From Alphaproteobacteria bacterium (GTDB taxonomy: Bacteria > Pseudomonadota > Alphaproteobacteria > UBA2136 > UBA6156): a DNA stretch of 64,000 bases. This document shows, piece by piece, positions 1 through 45,556 of the stretch. Where the stretch lies: the NCBI GenBank assembly GCA_036261915.1, contig DATAJX010000001.1, positions 83,875 to 147,874 on the forward strand. Direction: 5' to 3'. Each line of letters begins with the position of its first letter. The stretch's first letter is position 1. The notes beneath the pieces were generated by a model. The model had not been told where the DNA came from. It saw only the letters and a program-made list of their open reading frames with translations, and searched no databases. The position numbers were made by a program, and so were the translations under genes.

Positions 1-825
1 GCCACGCTCGGCCTCAACGCCAAGCCGCTGGCCAGTGGCAAATCACCTGTTGTGTTGCATGCCGAAAAACTCAGCCACACCTACACACGCCCGGGCTTCT
101 GGCCGTTCAAAAAGGCCGAGCACCTGCAAGCGCTCAGCAATGTCTCGCTCTCCCTGCAAGCAGGCCAAACCTTAGGTGTGGTGGGTGAAAGCGGTAGCGG
201 CAAAAGCACGCTCGCCCGTGTGCTTACCCGGCTGACCGAACCCGCCCATGGCGGCAAAATCGTGGTGCTTGGCCATACCTTCACGGGCCTCGAAGGCAAT
301 GCCAAACGCCTTGCGCGCAAAAACCTGCAAATGGTGTTTCAAGATCCTTCCGCCGCGCTCAACCCTTATCTTACGGCGGGCGAAAGCGTCGCCGAAGGCG
401 TGCGCGCCCACAACCTCATCGGCCCGAAAAAGATCCGCGCCTACGTCGACAAGATCATGGCCGATTGCGGCCTGCCGTCCGACAGCTACGACAGATACCC
501 GCACCAGTTTTCGGGCGGCCAAAAGCAGCGCATCTGCATCGCGCGCGCGCTGGCGCTCAAACCCAAAATCATTATCGCCGACGAAGCCGTGAGCGCGCTC
601 GACGTCTCCATCCAGGCGCAAATTCTCAAGCTGCTGGCCTCCATCCAAAAAGCCGAACGCACCAGCTACGTGTTCATCAGCCACGATCTCCGCGTGGTCA
701 GCCACCTCGCGCACAACGTGCTGGTCATGCACAACGGCAAGGTGGTCGAAAGCGGGCCCACGCAAAAGGTCTTCAGCAAGCCGCAGCACGCCTACACCAA
801 AAAATTGCTTTCCGCGGTTATCTAA
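1..825 (+). CDS. Oligopeptide/dipeptide ABC transporter ATP-binding protein (OppF/DppF-like), 5' partial
   Basis: Open frame runs from window base 1; Walker A GESGSGKST, ABC signature LSGGQKQR, Walker B IIIADE, C-terminal OppF-type extension. Confidence 0.85.
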   Translation, partial: ATLGLNAKPLASGKSPVVLHAEKLSHTYTRPGFWPFKKAEHLQALSNVSLSLQAGQTLGVVGESGSGKSTLARVLTRLTEPAHGGKIVVLGHTFTGLEGNAKRLARKNLQMVFQDPSAALNPYLTAGESVAEGVRAHNLIGPKKIRAYVDKIMADCGLPSDSYDRYPHQFSGGQKQRICIARALALKPKIIIADEAVSALDVSIQAQILKLLASIQKAERTSYVFISHDLRVVSHLAHNVLVMHNGKVVESGPTQKVFSKPQHAYTKKLLSAVI

Positions 826-832
826 ACCACAG

Positions 833-885
833 TCGTCATCCTCGCGCTTTCTTCAAGCGCGGGGATCCACTCTTAATCCTTACTT
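833..885. repeat. Dispersed hairpin repeat family A, copy 1
   Basis: GTCATCCTCGCGC-loop-GCGCGGGGATCCAC-CTTA(A/T)T-CTTA shared with 43116..43165; both copies abut the stop codon of a minus-strand gene. Confidence 0.55.
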
Positions 886-34565: not shown

Positions 34566-34611
34566 GCATTTCCCGCCCCATATGAAAGGGGTTGATAACA
34601 GGGAGGCCTCA

Positions 34612-40770: not shown

Positions 40771-41139
40771 ATGACACCCATCCTGCTTCTGGTTAATGCC
40801 CTGGTCGCCATCCTCATGGTCATCCTCATTCTTCTGCAGCGGAACGATCCCGCCGCGGGCGGCATGTTCGGCGGCACGGGCGGGGGCAGCCAGCCGGTGG
40901 TGCGCAATCCGCTCGCCAGGCCCACGGCGTTCCTGGCGGCTGTGTTCCTCATCAACTGCATTACCATCGCCTATCTCACCAAGGGTCACGAAAACGCCAG
41001 CACCATCATGCACGCCGAACAGGCAGGCGAACTCACCGGCGTTTCAAATACCATCCCCGACCTCCCGGCCCCGCAGGTGCCCGGTGTGTCGTCAACCGTA
41101 TCGGTCAGCGCCAGCGCGGTGGTAAGCCCCACTAAATAA
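40771..41139 (+). CDS. secG: Preprotein translocase subunit SecG
   Basis: N-terminal TM, GGMFGG..GG motif, second hydrophobic segment; conserved position upstream of pyrG. Confidence 0.8.
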   Translation: MTPILLLVNALVAILMVILILLQRNDPAAGGMFGGTGGGSQPVVRNPLARPTAFLAAVFLINCITIAYLTKGHENASTIMHAEQAGELTGVSNTIPDLPAPQVPGVSSTVSVSASAVVSPTK

Positions 41140-42848
41140 TGCGCGACGTTTCCGCCCCCATCGCCAAACCCGCCAAACCCGGCCTTAAAAAACTCCCCTC
41201 TACCAAATTCATCTTCGTCACCGGCGGGGTCATGAGCTCGCTGGGCAAAGGCCTCACCGCCAGCGCACTCGGCGCGGTGCTGCAGGCGCGGGGCTTCTCG
41301 GTCATCCAGCAAAAGCTCGACCCCTACCTCAACGTCGATCCCGGCACCATGTCGCCCTTCCAGCACGGCGAGGTCTACGTCACCGCCGACGGCTGCGAAA
41401 CCGACCTCGACCTCGGCCACTACGAACGCTTCACCGGCGTGCCCACCGGGCAATATTCCAATACCACCAGCGGGCAGATATACTGGCGCATCCTCAGCAA
41501 AGAGCGCCGCGGTGACTACCTCGGCAAAACCGTGCAGGTCGTCCCGCACGTCACGGGCGAAGTAAAAAACTTCGTCAAACTGCTCGACGGCGCGGCCGAC
41601 TTCGCGCTCATCGAGATCGGCGGCACGGTGGGCGATATCGAAGGCCGCGCCTTCATCGAAGCCATCCGCGAATTCGGGCTCGAAAAAGGCGAGGCCAACA
41701 CCCTCTACATGCACCTTACCTACGCGCCTTATTTACGGGTGGTGGGCGAGATCAAAACCAAGCCTACGCAAAACGCGGTGCGCGAACTGCTCGAAATGGG
41801 CATCAAGGCCAACGTGGTGGTGGTGCGGGCCGAAGTCACCGTGCCCGACAACGAACTGAAAAAAATAGCCATGTTTGCGGGCCTCAAGCCCAGCCATGTG
41901 GTCAGCTGCCCCGATAGCCCCACCATTTACAGCGTGCCGCTCACCCTGCATGCCAACGGGCTCGATGCCGCCGTGCTCGACCACTTCGGCCTCAAGGCGC
42001 CCAAGCCCAACATGGCGCGCTGGCAGCACATCGCAGGCACCATCATGCAGCCGCCGCGCAAGGTTAAGATCGCGGTGGTCGGCAAATACGTCCAGCTGGG
42101 CGATGCTTATATTTCACTCAACGAAGCCCTCCTGCACGGCGGTTTCGCGCACGACGCCAAGGTCGAGATCGACTTCGTCGACAGCGAAGCGCTCGAAAAA
42201 CTGTCCGAAAAAGAAGTCGCCAAACGCCTCTCCGGCGCAGCAGGCATCCTCGTCCCCGGCGGCTTCGGCTATCGCGGCACCGAAGGCAAGATCCGTGCCA
42301 TCGCCTACGCGCGCAAAAACAACGTGCCGTTCTTCGGCATCTGCCTCGGGCTGCAAATGGCCATCGTCGAGGTCGCGCGCAACGCGGCCAAACTGGCGGG
42401 TGCCGGCAGCACCGAATTCGCCACCGACATGGGCAAGGCACTCAAACACCCCGTCATCAGCCTCATGACTGAATGGGATGCCGGCAAGGTGAAGCGTACC
42501 GACAAAGAAAACATGGGCGGCACCCTGCGCCTCGGCAACTATCCCTGCAAACTGGGCAAGGGCACGCTGGCCAACAAACTGTACAAGGCCGACAAGATCA
42601 CCGAGCGCCACCGCCACCGCTACGAGTTCAACCCCACCTACCGCAAACAGCTCGAAGCCGCAGGCCTCATCTTCTCCGGCACCAGCCCCACCGATCCCGA
42701 CCTGGTCGAGATCGTCGAACTCGACGCCAAAAAATCCGGCCATCCCTTCTTCATCGCCTGCCAGTTCCACCCCGAATTCCAAAGCCAGCCGCTCGCCCCC
42801 CACGCGCTGTTCGCGGGCTTCGTGGGGGCATCGCTCAAGCGCAAATAA
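41139..42848 (+). CDS. pyrG: CTP synthase
   Basis: KFIFVTGGVMSSLGKGLTASALG N-terminal P-loop, C-terminal glutamine amidotransferase (GICLGLQMAI...HPEF); ~22-aa N-terminal extension, so true start may lie downstream. Confidence 0.9.
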   Translation: MRDVSAPIAKPAKPGLKKLPSTKFIFVTGGVMSSLGKGLTASALGAVLQARGFSVIQQKLDPYLNVDPGTMSPFQHGEVYVTADGCETDLDLGHYERFTGVPTGQYSNTTSGQIYWRILSKERRGDYLGKTVQVVPHVTGEVKNFVKLLDGAADFALIEIGGTVGDIEGRAFIEAIREFGLEKGEANTLYMHLTYAPYLRVVGEIKTKPTQNAVRELLEMGIKANVVVVRAEVTVPDNELKKIAMFAGLKPSHVVSCPDSPTIYSVPLTLHANGLDAAVLDHFGLKAPKPNMARWQHIAGTIMQPPRKVKIAVVGKYVQLGDAYISLNEALLHGGFAHDAKVEIDFVDSEALEKLSEKEVAKRLSGAAGILVPGGFGYRGTEGKIRAIAYARKNNVPFFGICLGLQMAIVEVARNAAKLAGAGSTEFATDMGKALKHPVISLMTEWDAGKVKRTDKENMGGTLRLGNYPCKLGKGTLANKLYKADKITERHRHRYEFNPTYRKQLEAAGLIFSGTSPTDPDLVEIVELDAKKSGHPFFIACQFHPEFQSQPLAPHALFAGFVGASLKRK

Positions 42849-42853
42849 AAAAA

Positions 42854-42876
42854 GCCGTCCCGAAGGACGGCTTTTC
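42854..42876. terminator. Bidirectional terminator after pyrG
   Basis: GCCGTCC-cgaa-GGACGGC hairpin flanked by AAAAAA / TTTTC. Confidence 0.75.
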
Positions 42877-42878
42877 AT

Positions 42879-43049
42879 TTAGCTGAACAGGTTCACAACC
42901 CACATGAACCACGAGTTCGGGGCGGGGCGGATGCCGAACGCAACGGCGATCACCGTCACCAGCACCGCCAAAAATATAAAGCGGCACCACATCGAATTGG
43001 AAAGTATCGGCCTTGGCTTGCGGGGCCGGTCGTCATCATCAAACGTCAT
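42879..43049 (-). CDS. Small membrane protein (~56 aa)
   Basis: ATG 43049 with GGAGA RBS 6 nt upstream; acidic N-terminus MTFDDDDRPRKPRP then one TM helix; below the ORF-track length cut-off. Confidence 0.35.
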   Translation of the reverse strand: MTFDDDDRPRKPRPILSNSMWCRFIFLAVLVTVIAVAFGIRPAPNSWFMWVVNLFS

Positions 43050-43115
43050 GGAATGTCTCCAGTGAGGGGAACTTACCTCTCATATGGGGCCAAAACCGGC
43101 AATTTCAACCGCAGC

Positions 43116-43165
43116 CGTCATCCTCGCGCCTCTTTGCGCGGGGATCCACACTTATTCTTATCTTA
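43116..43165. repeat. Dispersed hairpin repeat family A, copy 2
   Basis: GTCATCCTCGCGCCTCTTTGCGCGGGGATCCACACTTATTCTTATC, ~80% identical to copy 1, immediately downstream (minus strand) of the VirB11-like stop codon. Confidence 0.55.
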
Positions 43166-44131
43166 AGCTTTCAACTGCTTGAAGTACCCGGCCACCCCCG
43201 TGCCCTGCCGGGTGAGTTGAATGACGCCGTAAATATCGTCCTCAAGCTGGCGCTTCAGCACGGTCAACGCGCTTTCGGCCACTTCGCCGTTCAGCATCAC
43301 GCGGTTGATGACGGCATCCAGCGCGCTGGCCGGGTTGTTGGCGTGGATGGTCGCCATGCTGCCTTCGTGGCCGGTGTTGATGGCCGAACAGAAAGCGAAG
43401 GCGTTCTCCTTGCGGATTTCGCCCAGCAGGATGCGGTCGGGCCGCATGCGCAAACAGGCGTTCAATATCTCGCGTATCTCGCGGCCGCTCGGGTCGCGGT
43501 TGGCACCGCCGAAAATAAGGCCCGCGTGGTTCACATGCGGTACTTCAAGCTCCGGCACGTCCTCCAGCGTAATCAACCGTTCCCCGGCAGGAATGTGCTT
43601 CAGCGCCGCATTCATGAAGCTGGTCTTCCCGGTGCTGGTCCCGCCACTGATCAGGATGGTCTTCTTCCCCTCAATGGCGGCCACCAGTTGTTCCTTGGTG
43701 CCGGGCGGAAGGATGAAATCGTCCAGCGTATAATCCTTCCGCTTGGCAATGCGGATGCTCATGGTGAAGGCCTTGGTGGTGTGGTGCCCGGCCACGATCT
43801 GCACGCGGTGCCCGCCGGGCATCTTGCAGCTCATAATGGGGTGGCTGGGGGTGAACACCTCGCCGCTCAGGTTGGCCAGCATGCGCGCGCTGTCTTCCAG
43901 CTGTTCCTGGCTCAGGTCCGGGGCATCCACCCATTCCCAGTGGCCGTCCGGGTACTCAAAACCAACCTGCCCCGGTTTGTTGATGATGACCTCCTTGATG
44001 CCCGGCCTGCCAATATAGGTCAGCAGCGGCCCCAAAAAGCGGGCTTCCACCTTGTTCAGGCCGTATTGCGCGGCCATGGCTTCAATTTCGGGCGTCAGGG
44101 CCTTCCCGGCCTGGTTGATGAGGTTCGACAT
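43163..44131 (-). CDS. VirB11/TrbB-family type IV secretion ATPase, orphan
   Basis: VirB11-like blocks: INKPGQVGFEY, MPGGHRVQIV, Walker A GGTSTGKTS, ERLITLEDVPELEV, LRMRPDRILLGEIR, His box GHEGSMATIHANNP; start set at ATG 44131. Confidence 0.8.
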   Translation of the reverse strand: MSNLINQAGKALTPEIEAMAAQYGLNKVEARFLGPLLTYIGRPGIKEVIINKPGQVGFEYPDGHWEWVDAPDLSQEQLEDSARMLANLSGEVFTPSHPIMSCKMPGGHRVQIVAGHHTTKAFTMSIRIAKRKDYTLDDFILPPGTKEQLVAAIEGKKTILISGGTSTGKTSFMNAALKHIPAGERLITLEDVPELEVPHVNHAGLIFGGANRDPSGREIREILNACLRMRPDRILLGEIRKENAFAFCSAINTGHEGSMATIHANNPASALDAVINRVMLNGEVAESALTVLKRQLEDDIYGVIQLTRQGTGVAGYFKQLKA

Positions 44132-44282
44132 AAAACCAATATGGGGCGGGCAGGGGCCTCTAACCAACAAAAACCTCTAAAAACCGGCAATAAATACCAC
44201 CCCCTGTGGCTCGAAAACCGGGCCTCGCCACCCGTATGCCACCCACCCCGGTTCATTTCGCCATTAAGCAAAAATCCGAAAC

Positions 44283-44313
44283 AAAAAGCCCACCCGCAAG
44301 GGTGGGCTTTTTT
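44283..44313. terminator. Terminator downstream of HA-domain gene
   Basis: GCCCACCC-gcaa-GGGTGGGC hairpin flanked by AAAAA / TTTTTT. Confidence 0.7.
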
Positions 44314-44561
44314 CATTGGGGGCGCCCCGAGCGGCTGGTCGGGATATCCCATGTCCACTTCGGAATGCAGCTCAGGGCCTTGAACAACTCGGGCGACAGT
44401 TGGGCGTTCTTGTAGCGGGTGCGCATTTCCAGCACCCACAGGCCCAGCGGCCTTTCGGTCTGGAACGATACGTTGGTATGGCCATGCTTGCGCGCATAGG
44501 CCCGCAGCATCTCCAGCCTGTGCTGGGTTCGCTTACTCAGGTACGCGGGGTGGCAACCCAT
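44313..44561 (-). CDS. Stand-alone helicase-associated (HA) domain protein (82 aa)
   Basis: LEMLRAYARKHGHTNVSFQTERPLGLWVLEMRTRYKNAQLSPELFKALSCIPKWTWD matches the HA-domain consensus (..F..HGH..VP...LG.WV..QR.....L...R...L..LGF.W). Confidence 0.6.
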   Translation of the reverse strand: MGCHPAYLSKRTQHRLEMLRAYARKHGHTNVSFQTERPLGLWVLEMRTRYKNAQLSPELFKALSCIPKWTWDIPTSRSGRPQ

Positions 44562-44609
44562 GGGAGCCTCCTGCGGTAAAACGGTATGGAAGGGAGCGCT
44601 GTGTATACG

Positions 44610-45212
44610 TTAAAGGCTTTGCGGCGGCAACAGCAAACCGGCGTGTTTTACCAGCAAGGCGTCCACGGCTTCCATATCCGCAACAACCCCCAACGCGGCA
44701 AGGCTGGTCACGGGTTTGTCCAGCCCGCAGGGCCTTATCCGGGCATACGCGCCCAAATCAGGCGCCACGTTCAGCGCCACGCCGTGGTACGCCACCCATT
44801 TCCTCACCCGCACGCCAATGGCGGCGATCTTGGCTTCACCCACCCAAACCCCCACATCGTCGGTGATCTCGCCCTTCACCCCCAAATCGGCCAAAACCGC
44901 CACCATCCACATCTGCAAGCGCTTAATGTAGGCCCGTATATCTCGGTCCTCCAGCCTCACAACCAGGTAAACCACCCGCTGCCCCGGCCCGTGGTAAGTA
45001 GTCTTGCCGCCGCGCCCGGTGGTAAGCACCGGAATATCCCCCGGGTTCAAAACCTCACCCGCTTCGGCGCTGCTCCCGGCGGTAAAAACCGGCGCGTGCT
45101 CGCAAAAAATCACCTTTTCCGGCCCACCGGCCAGCACATCGGCCAAGGTTTCCTCCATGCGCAGAACACCCTGTTCGTAAGGGGTCAGCCCGGGCCACGT
45201 TTCAAATTGCAT
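44610..45212 (-). CDS. lipB: Octanoyltransferase LipB
   Basis: LipB-like (TYHGPGQRVVYLVVRL, KIAAIGVRVRKWVAYHGVALNV); start set to ATG 45212 because the longer ORF would overlap the tRNA-Leu. Confidence 0.85.
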   Translation of the reverse strand: MQFETWPGLTPYEQGVLRMEETLADVLAGGPEKVIFCEHAPVFTAGSSAEAGEVLNPGDIPVLTTGRGGKTTYHGPGQRVVYLVVRLEDRDIRAYIKRLQMWMVAVLADLGVKGEITDDVGVWVGEAKIAAIGVRVRKWVAYHGVALNVAPDLGAYARIRPCGLDKPVTSLAALGVVADMEAVDALLVKHAGLLLPPQSL

Positions 45213-45270: not shown

Positions 45271-45355
45271 GCGCTCGTGGCGGAATTGGTAGACGCGCTG
45301 CCTTGAGGTGGCAGTCCGTAACAGGGTGTGGGTTCGAGTCCCTCCGAGCGCACCA
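45271..45355 (+). tRNA. tRNA-Leu (GAG)
   Basis: GCGCTCGTGGCGGAATTGGTAGACGCGCTGCCTTGAGGTGGCAG...GGTTCGAGTCCCTCCGAGCGCACCA; anticodon loop TTGAGGT; long variable arm typical of Leu. Confidence 0.9.
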
Positions 45356-45441
45356 AAATCACTCCAAAGGAGTGTTTCATAAGGGCGGAGCCGCGCCCAC
45401 CAGGCGTAGCGCGTGGGTGAAGGCGGAGATTTTTTCTCTAC

Positions 45442-45556
45442 CCGACATTCAAGCGCCACCCGCGCATCATCCGCGCTCGCTTTGGGTCTTAAAACCGACA
45501 AAACTGTACAGCAAACCGACAGCCGCGCATCACTCCCGCATCACATGCGCGCCATG
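45442..45556. repeat. Dispersed repeat family B copy 2
   Basis: CCGACATTCAAGCGCCACCCGCGCATCATCCGCGCTCG...CTGTACAGC...CCGCGCATCACTCCCGCATCACATGCGC similar to 27319..27422. Confidence 0.5.

What the first reader, a model, noticed from the sequence alone, without database searches (positions are those of the whole stretch)
42879..44561. Orphan VirB11/TrbB-family secretion ATPase flanked by a tiny membrane protein and a stand-alone helicase-associated-domain mini-gene
The 322-aa ATPase has all VirB11 hallmark blocks (Walker A GGTSTGKTS, Asp box, LGEIR, His box TIHANNP). No other T4SS/T2SS/pilus components are present within 20 kb on either side, so it is not part of an obvious apparatus. Immediately upstream on the same strand is an 82-aa protein that is essentially a single helicase-associated (HA) domain. 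That domain normally occurs in tandem at the C-termini of SNF2/helicase-like proteins rather than alone. Downstream is a 56-aa acidic-tail membrane protein with a strong RBS. The ATPase gene ends in a copy of repeat family A.
Basis: partly seen in the sequence, partly recalled or inferred. Interest (0 to 1): 0.55.

Follow-up and report, generated by a model that had tools for sequence, protein, structure and literature searches.

The report
Conserved solitary VirB11-like ATPase gene
The secretion-type ATPase is real and belongs to a slowly evolving family that always sits alone among housekeeping genes in uncultured Alphaproteobacteria, but the two small genes beside it are recent, lineage-specific neighbours and not its partners.

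Summary
All three ORFs exist at the stated coordinates on the minus strand. They are a 322-aa VirB11-type ATPase with every catalytic motif, an 82-aa single-HA-domain protein, and a 56-aa one-helix membrane protein. They do not form a module. The HA gene is a lineage-specific insertion between lipB and the ATPase and carries its own terminator. The 56-aa ORF has no homologue in about 24 related loci.

The ATPase itself is the interesting part. It belongs to a monophyletic clade found only in uncultured Alphaproteobacteria (locus GC 30-62%, at least 50% identity). Between the same genome pairs it is as conserved as CTP synthase. In every sampled context it is solitary among core genes: lipB, acpP-fabF, lpdA, hpf, lpxC. 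Its nearest outgroups (40-46% identity) include a genuine VirB11 inside a complete plasmid-type virB/virD4 operon, so the clade most likely derives from T4SS VirB11.

The most likely role is motor of a chromosomal, split-locus T4SS-type machine, as recently shown for H. pylori ComB11. A T4SS-independent, exapted function is not excluded. Whether other T4SS genes exist elsewhere in these genomes could not be tested. Interest is moderate: a new variant of a known kind.

The parts
42849..42876 (.). GC-rich hairpin with T-runs on both sides. It is an intrinsic terminator shared by the convergent pyrG (+) and the 56-aa ORF (-).
   Evidence: Terminator scan; sequence read.
42879..43049 (-). 56-aa ORF: acidic/basic N-terminus (MTFDDDDRPRKPRP) followed by one transmembrane helix. 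It is lineage-specific.
   Evidence: ORF list. GC3 is 0.77 against 0.44-0.48 at the other codon positions, and the hydropathy window reaches 2.56. GGAG lies 7 nt upstream of the ATG. No Pfam, NCBIfam, PHROG or PADLOC hit. No homologue in related loci.
43104..43158 (.). REP-like palindromic repeat (CCTCGCGC-loop-GCGCGGGG) just beyond the ATPase stop codon. The second copy is at 822-878.
   Evidence: blastn-short, alignment A4, pattern search giving 2 hits against 0 expected.
43163..44131 (-). 322-aa VirB11-clade ATPase with an N-terminal domain and a RecA-like C-terminal domain. All catalytic motifs are intact.
   Evidence: Family scans. Alignment A1 has 80 invariant columns. PDB sequence search. 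AF2 model, pLDDT 86. Foldseek top hits are Brucella VirB11 and HP0525, TM 0.73. GC3 is 0.83, like the host genes.
44132..44312 (-). 181-nt untranslated spacer upstream of the ATPase. It has no SD before the ATG and no sigma-70 consensus hit. The promoter must lie here because a terminator precedes it.
   Evidence: No Rfam family reaches its gathering score.
44283..44312 (-). Intrinsic terminator (AAAAAGCCCACCC-TTGC-GGGTGGGCTTTTT) directly after the HA stop codon. It is conserved in the L090 homologue.
44313..44561 (-). 82-aa stand-alone HA (helicase-associated, DNA-binding) domain protein. It is a lineage-specific insertion downstream of lipB.
   Evidence: Pfam PF03457, E = 2e-11. Only 2 other clusters exist in 5.8 billion proteins. 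dN/dS is 0.30. The context in L090 is lipB-HA-terminator.
44610..45212 (-). lipB (octanoyltransferase, ~200 aa). It is the conserved upstream neighbour of the ATPase in the high-GC branch of the family.
   Evidence: Pfam/NCBIfam; gene call in L001; synteny.
45271..45355 (+). tRNA-Leu(gag), divergent from lipB. It explains the spurious N-terminal extension of the long lipB ORF.
   Evidence: ARAGORN; Rfam tRNA.

Best explanation
The ATPase is a vertically inherited core chromosomal gene. It belongs to a VirB11-derived clade that is spread through a broad set of uncultured Alphaproteobacteria. In the high-GC branch of the family, to which the window belongs, it lies immediately downstream of lipB and was probably co-transcribed with it.

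In the window's lineage a small HA-domain gene with its own terminator was inserted between the two genes, so the ATPase is now a separate transcription unit. The 56-aa membrane ORF is a separate, lineage-specific gene. There is no HA-ATPase-56aa module.

Mechanistically the protein is a catalytically intact, two-domain traffic ATPase, presumed to be hexameric. I think it most likely docks on the cytoplasmic face of a T4SS-type (MPF-T-derived) inner-membrane complex whose other genes lie at other chromosomal loci. There it would supply ATP-driven conformational work for assembly or substrate transfer, as H. pylori ComB11 (HP1421) does with ComB4.

Shown: identity, fold, intact motifs, monophyly, solitary position, strong conservation, and the lack of linkage to the flanking small genes. 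Inferred: the hexamer, membrane docking, and the existence of T4SS partners elsewhere.
For: Family and fold:
- Pfam T2SSE, with VirB11 as the best NCBIfam model.
- The best PDB sequence hit is Brucella VirB11.
- The AF2 model (pLDDT 86) matches Brucella VirB11 and HP0525 (TM 0.73) ahead of CpaF.
- All Walker, Asp-box and His-box residues are invariant across 29 family members.

Origin:
- The family is monophyletic in 59 of 60 NJ bootstraps.
- The nearest outgroup representatives are 40-46% identical.
- One of them, P0127 (44%), lies in a complete virB3-4-5-6-8-9-10-X-virB11-virD4-repA operon.
- Plasmid VirB11 proteins reach only ~36% identity.

Core-gene behaviour:
- Between the same genome pairs the ATPase is 76% and 74% identical, against PyrG 72% and 70%, LipB 56%, SecG 54-60% and PpiD 36-39%.
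- Its GC3 matches the host genes.
- It occurs in loci with GC from 30% to 62%.
- It is always solitary among housekeeping genes.

Precedent: H. pylori comB11 is a VirB11 gene in an operon with fliI, ileS and murB, far from comB2-4 and comB6-10. It is a core gene, and its product binds ComB4 (PMC13395361).

Not a module.
Against: - No other T4SS gene was seen anywhere: not in the 64-kb window, and not within 10 kb of the gene in about 24 related loci. The rest of these genomes could not be searched, so the partner apparatus is purely inferred.
- The protein scores below NCBI's VirB11 equivalog cut-off (230.3 against 249.95).
- Conservation equal to that of CTP synthase across such a wide GC range is unusual for a T4SS component. 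It would fit a housekeeping role equally well.
- Branching order outside the family is poorly supported. The family plus its nearest sister group was recovered in 18 of 60 bootstraps.
Confidence: 0.5

Rival explanations
1. Exaptation. The clade descends from a T4SS VirB11 but now works without any T4SS, as a housekeeping ATPase with a different, still unknown client. That client could be a membrane or envelope process or a nucleic-acid transaction.
For: - It is always solitary, and its neighbours differ between lineages but are always core genes.
- Its conservation equals that of PyrG.
- It falls below the VirB11 equivalog cut-off.
- The family has a distinct, invariant N-terminal-domain signature, CKMPGGHRVQ.
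- Its neighbours are recurrently acyl-ACP or lipoate enzymes: lipB, acpP-fabF, lpdA, lpxC and an Aas-like protein.
- The ComB11 paper itself notes hints of an extra, non-T4SS role for a core VirB11.
Against: - No VirB11-family protein has been shown to act without a T4SS.
- No conserved partner gene was found that would point to a client.
- The neighbour pattern was noticed post hoc.
- The absence of a T4SS from these genomes has not been shown.
Confidence: 0.3
2. The ATPase is the motor of a type-IV-filament-like system built from non-canonical GspG-like pseudopilins.
For: - In the low-GC branch (L092/L093, L104, L107) the ATPase is followed convergently by 1-4 tandem ~195-aa proteins.
- Those proteins match Pfam T2SSG above its cut-off and share an invariant pilin-like N-terminus.
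- The ATPase and at least 8 such paralogues lie on the same 1.35-Mb contig.
Against: - The pilin family is large and dispersed, with at least 8 copies per genome, so adjacency can arise by chance.
- The genes are convergent, not co-oriented.
- L108 in the same branch lacks them.
- No copy occurs in the window or in any higher-GC locus.
- None of the top 120 pilin hits lies on a contig of a high-GC family member, judged by contig-length fingerprints.
- No platform protein (PilC/TadB) or prepilin peptidase is seen nearby.
- The phylogeny points to T4SS VirB11, not PilB or GspE.
Confidence: 0.1
3. HA protein, ATPase and 56-aa membrane protein form a functional three-gene module. In this reading a DNA-binding adaptor, a motor and a membrane anchor act together.
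For: The three genes are on the same strand and adjacent in the window. The HA domain binds DNA (Mills et al. 2013, cited in PMC12191111).
Against: - A terminator separates the HA gene from the ATPase.
- The HA gene is absent next to the ATPase in every other relative.
- The HA homologue in L090 has no ATPase downstream.
- The 56-aa ORF has no homologue elsewhere.
Confidence: 0.03
4. The gene is a decaying remnant of an integrated conjugative element.
For: A tRNA-Leu gene lies nearby. In L082 an integrase and type I R-M island sits beside lipB.
Against: - The ORF is intact and has all catalytic residues.
- 80 columns are invariant across the family.
- Its GC3 matches the host genes.
- Its position is syntenic across distant genomes, and it is as conserved as PyrG.
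- In L082 the island lies on the far side of lipB.
Confidence: 0.02

Closest known systems
H. pylori ComB11 (HP1421), the VirB11-family ATPase of the ComB competence T4SS (PMC13395361)
   Same: It is a VirB11-family ATPase encoded in an operon of unrelated housekeeping genes, far from all other T4SS genes. It is a core gene of its lineage.
   Different: - For ComB11 the partner T4SS (comB2-4, comB6-10) is known and an interaction with ComB4 has been shown. Here no partner has been identified.
- The taxon differs: Campylobacterota against Alphaproteobacteria.
- The window protein is only ~26-27% identical, over structure-based Foldseek alignments, to HP0525, the other H. pylori VirB11 homologue. 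ComB11 itself was not compared.
Canonical P-type VirB11 (Agrobacterium/Brucella VirB11, PDB 2gza; H. pylori HP0525, PDB 1g6o)
   Same: It has the same two-domain fold, the same Walker A/B, Asp-box and His-box motifs, and a similar length of ~320-330 aa. VirB11 is the best HMM and structure match.
   Different: - Sequence identity is only 33-38%.
- It scores below the TIGR02788 cut-off.
- It is never adjacent to virB10 or virD4.
- It is chromosomal, syntenic and slowly evolving, rather than plasmid- or island-borne.
Rickettsiales rvh T4SS (scattered chromosomal virB genes; PMC2653234, seen only in the result list, not read)
   Same: From my own knowledge, not tested here: it is a chromosomal, vertically inherited alphaproteobacterial T4SS whose genes are split over several loci.
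   Different: From my own knowledge, rvhB11 stays clustered with virB8-10 and virD4. The VirB11 of a Rickettsiaceae MAG (L022) is only 34% identical to the window protein and falls outside the family.
CpaF/TadA Tad-pilus ATPase (PDB 8rkd, 9e24)
   Same: It belongs to the same superfamily and gives a nearly equal PDB sequence E-value (7.5e-33 against 1.7e-33).
   Different: - The solved CpaF chains are 420-500 residues long, against 322 aa here.
- No tad or cpa genes lie nearby.
- NCBIfam TadA-type TIGR03819 scores 160 bits against a cut-off of 373.
- In the tree the family sits with the VirB11 proteins.
HA domain PF03457 (NMR structure of Bacteroides vulgatus BVU_0683 residues 627-691; Mills et al. 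2013, cited in PMC12191111)
   Same: The 82-aa protein matches the HA profile over 55 of its 64 positions. Three helices are predicted.
   Different: It stands alone rather than being fused to a helicase or nuclease. Only two other clusters of such 82-aa proteins were found.

Membership tests
VirB11 (T4SS traffic ATPase) | Walker A, Asp box, Walker B and His box of the secretion-ATPase superfamily | tested here: met
   GGTSTGKTS, ERLITLEDVPELE, RPDRILLGEIR and GHEGSMATIHAN are present and invariant in 29 homologues. Pfam T2SSE, 4.9e-28.
VirB11 (T4SS traffic ATPase) | Two-domain (NTD + RecA-like CTD) fold, ~330 aa, matching solved VirB11 structures | tested here: met
   AF2 pLDDT 86. Foldseek hits: 2gza E = 1e-24; 1g6o/1nlz TM 0.73.
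VirB11 (T4SS traffic ATPase) | Score above NCBIfam equivalog cut-off (TIGR02788, 249.95 bits) | tested here: not met
   230.3 bits. It is the best model but falls below the cut-off.
VirB11 (T4SS traffic ATPase) | Phylogenetic placement among VirB11 proteins of genuine T4SS operons | tested here: inconclusive
   The family is monophyletic (59/60). The nearest groups include P0127, which lies in a full virB/virD4 operon. Sister relations are weakly supported (18/60).
VirB11 (T4SS traffic ATPase) | Encoded with, or functionally coupled to, VirB4, VirB6, VirB8-10 and VirD4 | tested here: not met
   None was found in the 64-kb window or within 10 kb in about 24 related loci (gene tables). Genome-wide presence is not testable with these tools.
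VirB11 (T4SS traffic ATPase) | Hexameric assembly and ATP hydrolysis | not testable with these tools
   Needs biochemistry. Only a monomer model was made.
TrbB (P-type conjugative transfer ATPase) | Score above TIGR02782 cut-off (304.55 bits) | tested here: not met
   133 bits.
CpaF/TadA (Tad pilus ATPase) | HMM membership and tad/cpa gene neighbourhood | tested here: not met
   TIGR03819 scores 160 bits against a cut-off of 373. No CpaE, TadB/C or secretin homologue lies near any family member.
Split-locus chromosomal T4SS with remote VirB11 (ComB11 type) | VirB11 gene embedded in a housekeeping operon and conserved as a core gene | tested here: met
   lipB-ATPase spacers are 7-74 bp in relatives. 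Conservation equals that of PyrG.
Split-locus chromosomal T4SS with remote VirB11 (ComB11 type) | Remaining T4SS genes present at other loci of the same genome | not testable with these tools
HA domain (PF03457) | Score above Pfam gathering threshold | tested here: met
   44.4 bits against 28.4; residues 13-64 match profile positions 6-60 of 64.
HA domain (PF03457) | Occurrence fused to, or repeated in, a helicase or nuclease | tested here: not met
   It is an 82-aa stand-alone ORF bounded by an RBS and a terminator. Its homologues are also 82 aa.

The most novel reading that the evidence does not exclude
A VirB11 from a conjugative T4SS was domesticated early in a large, still uncultured branch of Alphaproteobacteria. 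It now acts as a T4SS-independent housekeeping motor that evolves as slowly as CTP synthase. Its client is unknown. The two leads are the dispersed family of non-canonical GspG-like pseudopilins next to it in low-GC members, and the recurrent acyl-ACP/lipoate gene neighbourhood.
Probability: 0.3. Interest if true: 0.75.

Novelty: new variant of a known kind. Interest (0 to 1): 0.45.

Why it matters
VirB11 ATPases are regarded as dedicated parts of type IV secretion machines and normally travel with them on mobile elements. A VirB11-derived clade that is solitary, syntenic with core genes and as conserved as CTP synthase across widely diverged, uncultured Alphaproteobacteria points to one of two things.

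The first is an ancient, chromosomally fixed, split-locus T4SS, like ComB in H. pylori or rvh in Rickettsiales. Its biology could be DNA uptake or effector delivery, and it is unknown in these abundant environmental and marine lineages.

The second is the first case of a VirB11 exapted to a non-secretion role.

Either outcome gives a clean, testable entry point. It also corrects the database label ('T2SS/T4P/T4SS family ATPase'), which hides a well-defined orthologous group.

Tried and rejected
- **Genome-contig scan.** It returned almost only canonical VirB11/CpaF loci at 30-38% identity and a single 1.8-kb family fragment. The planned survey of named genomes, and any whole-genome search for virB genes, was therefore lost. 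The loci were reused as outgroups and as a source of T4SS/Tad query proteins.
- **Repeat searches.** The repeat finder on the whole window and a 31-nt exact-ish pattern missed the repeat after the ATPase, because the two copies differ by a 3-nt indel. blastn-short found it.
- **Shared promoter motif.** A putative motif, CCGCCCCATAT, is not enriched: 3 hits against 1.45 expected.
- **Promoter scan.** The sigma-70 scan found no promoter in 42700-44800.
- **Phage and defence libraries.** PHROGs gave only weak P-loop hits. PADLOC gave nothing. The viral-contig scan found no family member. Phage or defence origins are rejected.
- **Extra Pfam labels.** The labels on longer homologues are P-loop cross-hits (nSTAND3 and similar, all below their cut-offs), not real extra domains. 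PF27713, also listed, did not appear in that scan.
- **HA protein structure.** There was no PDB sequence hit. The single-sequence AF2 model was poor (pLDDT 58), and its Foldseek matches were meaningless (all E > 4).
- **Rfam.** It found only the tRNA.
- **Literature.** Searches for orphan or solitary VirB11 in Alphaproteobacteria found no description of this family.
- **One failed call.** A strand folding failed on its length limit and was not repeated.
Full report
**What is at the coordinates**

The window is a GC-rich (61%) stretch of housekeeping genes. On the minus strand, between the convergent pyrG (41139-42848, +) and a divergent tRNA-Leu(gag) (45271-45355, +), the order is as follows:

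- lipB (44610-45212)
- an 82-aa ORF (44313-44561)
- an intrinsic terminator (44283-44312)
- a 181-nt spacer
- the ATPase (43163-44131)
- a 55-nt palindromic repeat (43104-43158)
- a 56-aa ORF (42879-43049)
- a bidirectional terminator (42849-76)

The 256-aa 'lipB' ORF in the mechanical list runs into the antisense of the tRNA. The real gene is about 200 aa.

**Check of the observation**

The ATPase matches Pfam T2SSE at 4.9e-28. Its best NCBIfam model is VirB11 TIGR02788 at 230 bits, just under the 250-bit cut-off. It scores 160 bits against the TadA-like TIGR03819 and 133 bits against TrbB. All four nucleotide-binding motifs are present.

The 82-aa protein is one HA domain: PF03457, E = 2e-11, above the Pfam threshold. 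It is coding. Against a 77%-identical homologue of the same length (L090), dN/dS is 0.30, and both the RBS and the terminator are conserved.

The 56-aa ORF has a GGAG Shine-Dalgarno sequence and one hydrophobic helix. Its GC3 is 0.77, against 0.44-0.48 at the other two codon positions, which is the coding signature of this genome. Its acidic run is N-terminal, not a tail.

The 'repeat family A' copy is a REP-like element that lies 5-59 nt beyond the stop codon. It has one other copy in the window, at 822-878, also just after a stop codon.

No T4SS, Tad or pilus gene was detected in the whole window. I tested this with 7370 ORFs taken from 79 canonical VirB11/CpaF loci, and only generic ABC-type/FtsH-type ATPase hits appeared.

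**The three genes are not a module**

The ATPase has many close homologues. The HA protein has only two other clusters in 5.8 billion proteins. The 56-aa ORF has no homologue in any related locus.

In the closest relative (85% identity), lipB and the ATPase are 62 nt apart with no HA gene. Two unrelated-sized small ORFs follow. In L082, L083, L087 and L094 the spacer is 7-74 nt.

The only HA homologue with context (L090) sits after a 92%-identical lipB and ends in the same terminator. It is followed by unrelated genes on the opposite strand, not by the ATPase.

The HA gene therefore travels with lipB. It is an insertion that, in the window's lineage, cut the ATPase off from the lipB transcript. 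The proteins downstream of the ATPase in relatives are 166, 147, 140 and 261 aa long, and are unrelated to each other and to the 56-aa ORF.

**The ATPase family**

Homologues at 50-85% identity occur only in uncultured Alphaproteobacteria MAGs and metagenomes. This includes Tara Oceans scaffolds, and the loci have GC contents from 30% to 62%.

An exhaustive search of 1.84 billion cluster representatives shows the following tiers:

| Tier | Identity | Bit score |
|---|---|---|
| The family (a handful of 50%-identity clusters) | 52-58% | 310-396 |
| Intermediate tier | 40-46% | 196-252 |
| The mass of VirB11/CpaF proteins | lower | below 185 |

In an NJ tree of 159 sequences the family is monophyletic in 59 of 60 bootstraps. 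One member of the intermediate tier, P0127 (44%), lies in a complete virB3-B4-B5-B6-B8-B9-B10-X-virB11-virD4-repA operon. The clade therefore most probably derives from a conjugative-type VirB11.

Plasmid VirB11 proteins reach only about 36% identity. No family member was found in viral contigs.

The AF2 model (pLDDT 86) matches Brucella VirB11 and H. pylori HP0525 (TM 0.73) ahead of CpaF, FlaI and PilT.

**Solitary and core**

I examined nine contexts from exact-protein look-ups and fifteen metagenomic loci. In all of them the gene is alone among core genes:

- lipB-ATPase-(variable)-pyrG-secG: window, L082, L083, the P0002 contig, L094
- lipB-ATPase: L087
- lipB..glyoxalase-ATPase-recO-era-rnc: L085
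- sucA-sucB-..-lpdA-ATPase: L088
- lptCAB-rpoN-hpf-ATPase: L089
- ATPase-acpP-fabF-mltG-gmk: L091, L099, L105
- ftsZ-lpxC-ATPase: L103, and L101 with an intervening gene
- next to an Aas-like acyltransferase and gatCAB: L097

None contains a homologue of any T4SS or Tad component.

Between the same genome pairs the ATPase is 76% and 74% identical. PyrG is 72% and 70%, LipB is 56%, SecG is 54-60% and PpiD is 36-39%. Eighty columns are invariant in a 29-sequence alignment whose rows fall to 48% identity to the window protein. Its GC3 (0.83) matches the host genes. This is the behaviour of a vertically inherited core gene, not of cargo on a mobile element.

**Mechanism**

The sequence and model show a catalytically competent two-domain traffic ATPase. 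What it drives is inferred.

The best precedent is H. pylori ComB11 (HP1421). It is a VirB11-family ATPase encoded in an operon with fliI, ileS and murB, far from comB2-4 and comB6-10. It is the only ComB gene present in every strain, it binds ComB4, and it is essential for DNA uptake (PMC13395361).

By analogy I favour a motor of a chromosomal, split-locus T4SS-type machine (confidence 0.5).

The main rival (0.3) is exaptation to a T4SS-independent housekeeping role. It fits the exceptional conservation, the sub-threshold VirB11 score, and the lack of any conserved partner.

A third reading (0.1) comes from the low-GC branch. There the ATPase is followed convergently by 1-4 tandem GspG-like pseudopilins with an invariant, non-canonical N-terminus, KxAMFGLDARIALAIFGALSVISGAALYSAI. 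That family is large and dispersed, with at least 8 copies on one 1.35-Mb contig. It is also absent from the window and from all higher-GC loci, so the adjacency may be fortuitous.

**The HA protein**

The HA domain is a small helical DNA-binding domain. Its only structural study is the NMR structure of Bacteroides vulgatus BVU_0683(627-691) (Mills et al. 2013, cited in PMC12191111). Here it stands alone, is under purifying selection, and is most likely co-transcribed with lipB. Its function is unknown, and nothing links it to the ATPase. My own structural attempts failed.

**Verdict**

The 'orphan ATPase' interpretation is right and generalises. The suggested association with the two small flanking genes is not supported.

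The ATPase clade is an uncharacterised, well-defined variant of VirB11. I rate it of moderate interest (0.45). It would rise substantially if whole-genome screens showed that no T4SS accompanies it.

Noticed in passing
L107 1079-3524 (four tandem copies); L092 11041-11625 and 14405-15028; L104 1226-1807: These are ~195-aa GspG-like pseudopilins (Pfam T2SSG above its cut-off). They share a 29-residue invariant, non-canonical N-terminus (AMFGLDARIALAIFGALSVISGAALYSAI, no Glu at +5). They form a large multi-copy family in low-GC marine Alphaproteobacteria MAGs, with 1813 hits and at least 8 paralogues on one 1.35-Mb contig. In three loci they lie convergent with the solitary ATPase.
   Followed up: partly
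L082-L105 (neighbours of the ATPase orthologues): In independent contexts the immediate neighbours are repeatedly enzymes of acyl-ACP or lipoate metabolism: lipB, acpP-fabF, lpdA after sucAB, lpxC, and an Aas-like acyltransferase/AMP-binding protein. This pattern was noticed post hoc and could be coincidence.
   Followed up: partly
window 822-878 and 43104-43158: There are two copies of a ~55-nt REP-like palindromic repeat (stem CCTCGCGC/GCGCGGGG). Both are in the same absolute orientation, and each lies just beyond the stop codon of a gene on a different strand. No Rfam family matches.
   Followed up: partly
window 45271-45355 (+); L082 1-9052: tRNA-Leu(gag) lies directly upstream of lipB, and the long lipB ORF starts inside its antisense strand. 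In relative L082, two integrases and a type I restriction-modification/nucleotidyltransferase island sit directly upstream of lipB, where the window has this tRNA gene. In L083 a transposase occupies the same side. I did not check L082 for a tRNA there.
   Followed up: no
L091 10001-11434; L099 9596-10888; L105 9515-10906; proteins P0080, P0087, P0096: Marine members of the family carry 100-230-residue N-terminal extensions. In the two I read (L099, L105) they are Lys/Glu-rich, and none has a Pfam domain. The window protein lacks such an extension.
   Followed up: no
window 44132-44170: The ATPase ATG has no Shine-Dalgarno sequence and is preceded by CCCGCCCCATATTGGTTTT. This may indicate a leaderless or very short-leader transcript. 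The same CCGCCCCATAT string occurs at 34573, but it is not statistically enriched.
   Followed up: partly
L109 1-13976: This is a complete plasmid-type virB3-virB11/virD4/repA cluster from a metagenome. Its VirB11 (P0127) is 44% identical to the window protein, and a 733-aa protein with no Pfam hit lies between virB10 and virB11.
   Followed up: no
window 45383-45483 (+): There is a weak Rfam match to the Rhizobiales sRNA Atu_At1 (34 bits against a gathering score of 60, E = 0.004), just downstream of the tRNA-Leu and upstream of surA.
   Followed up: no
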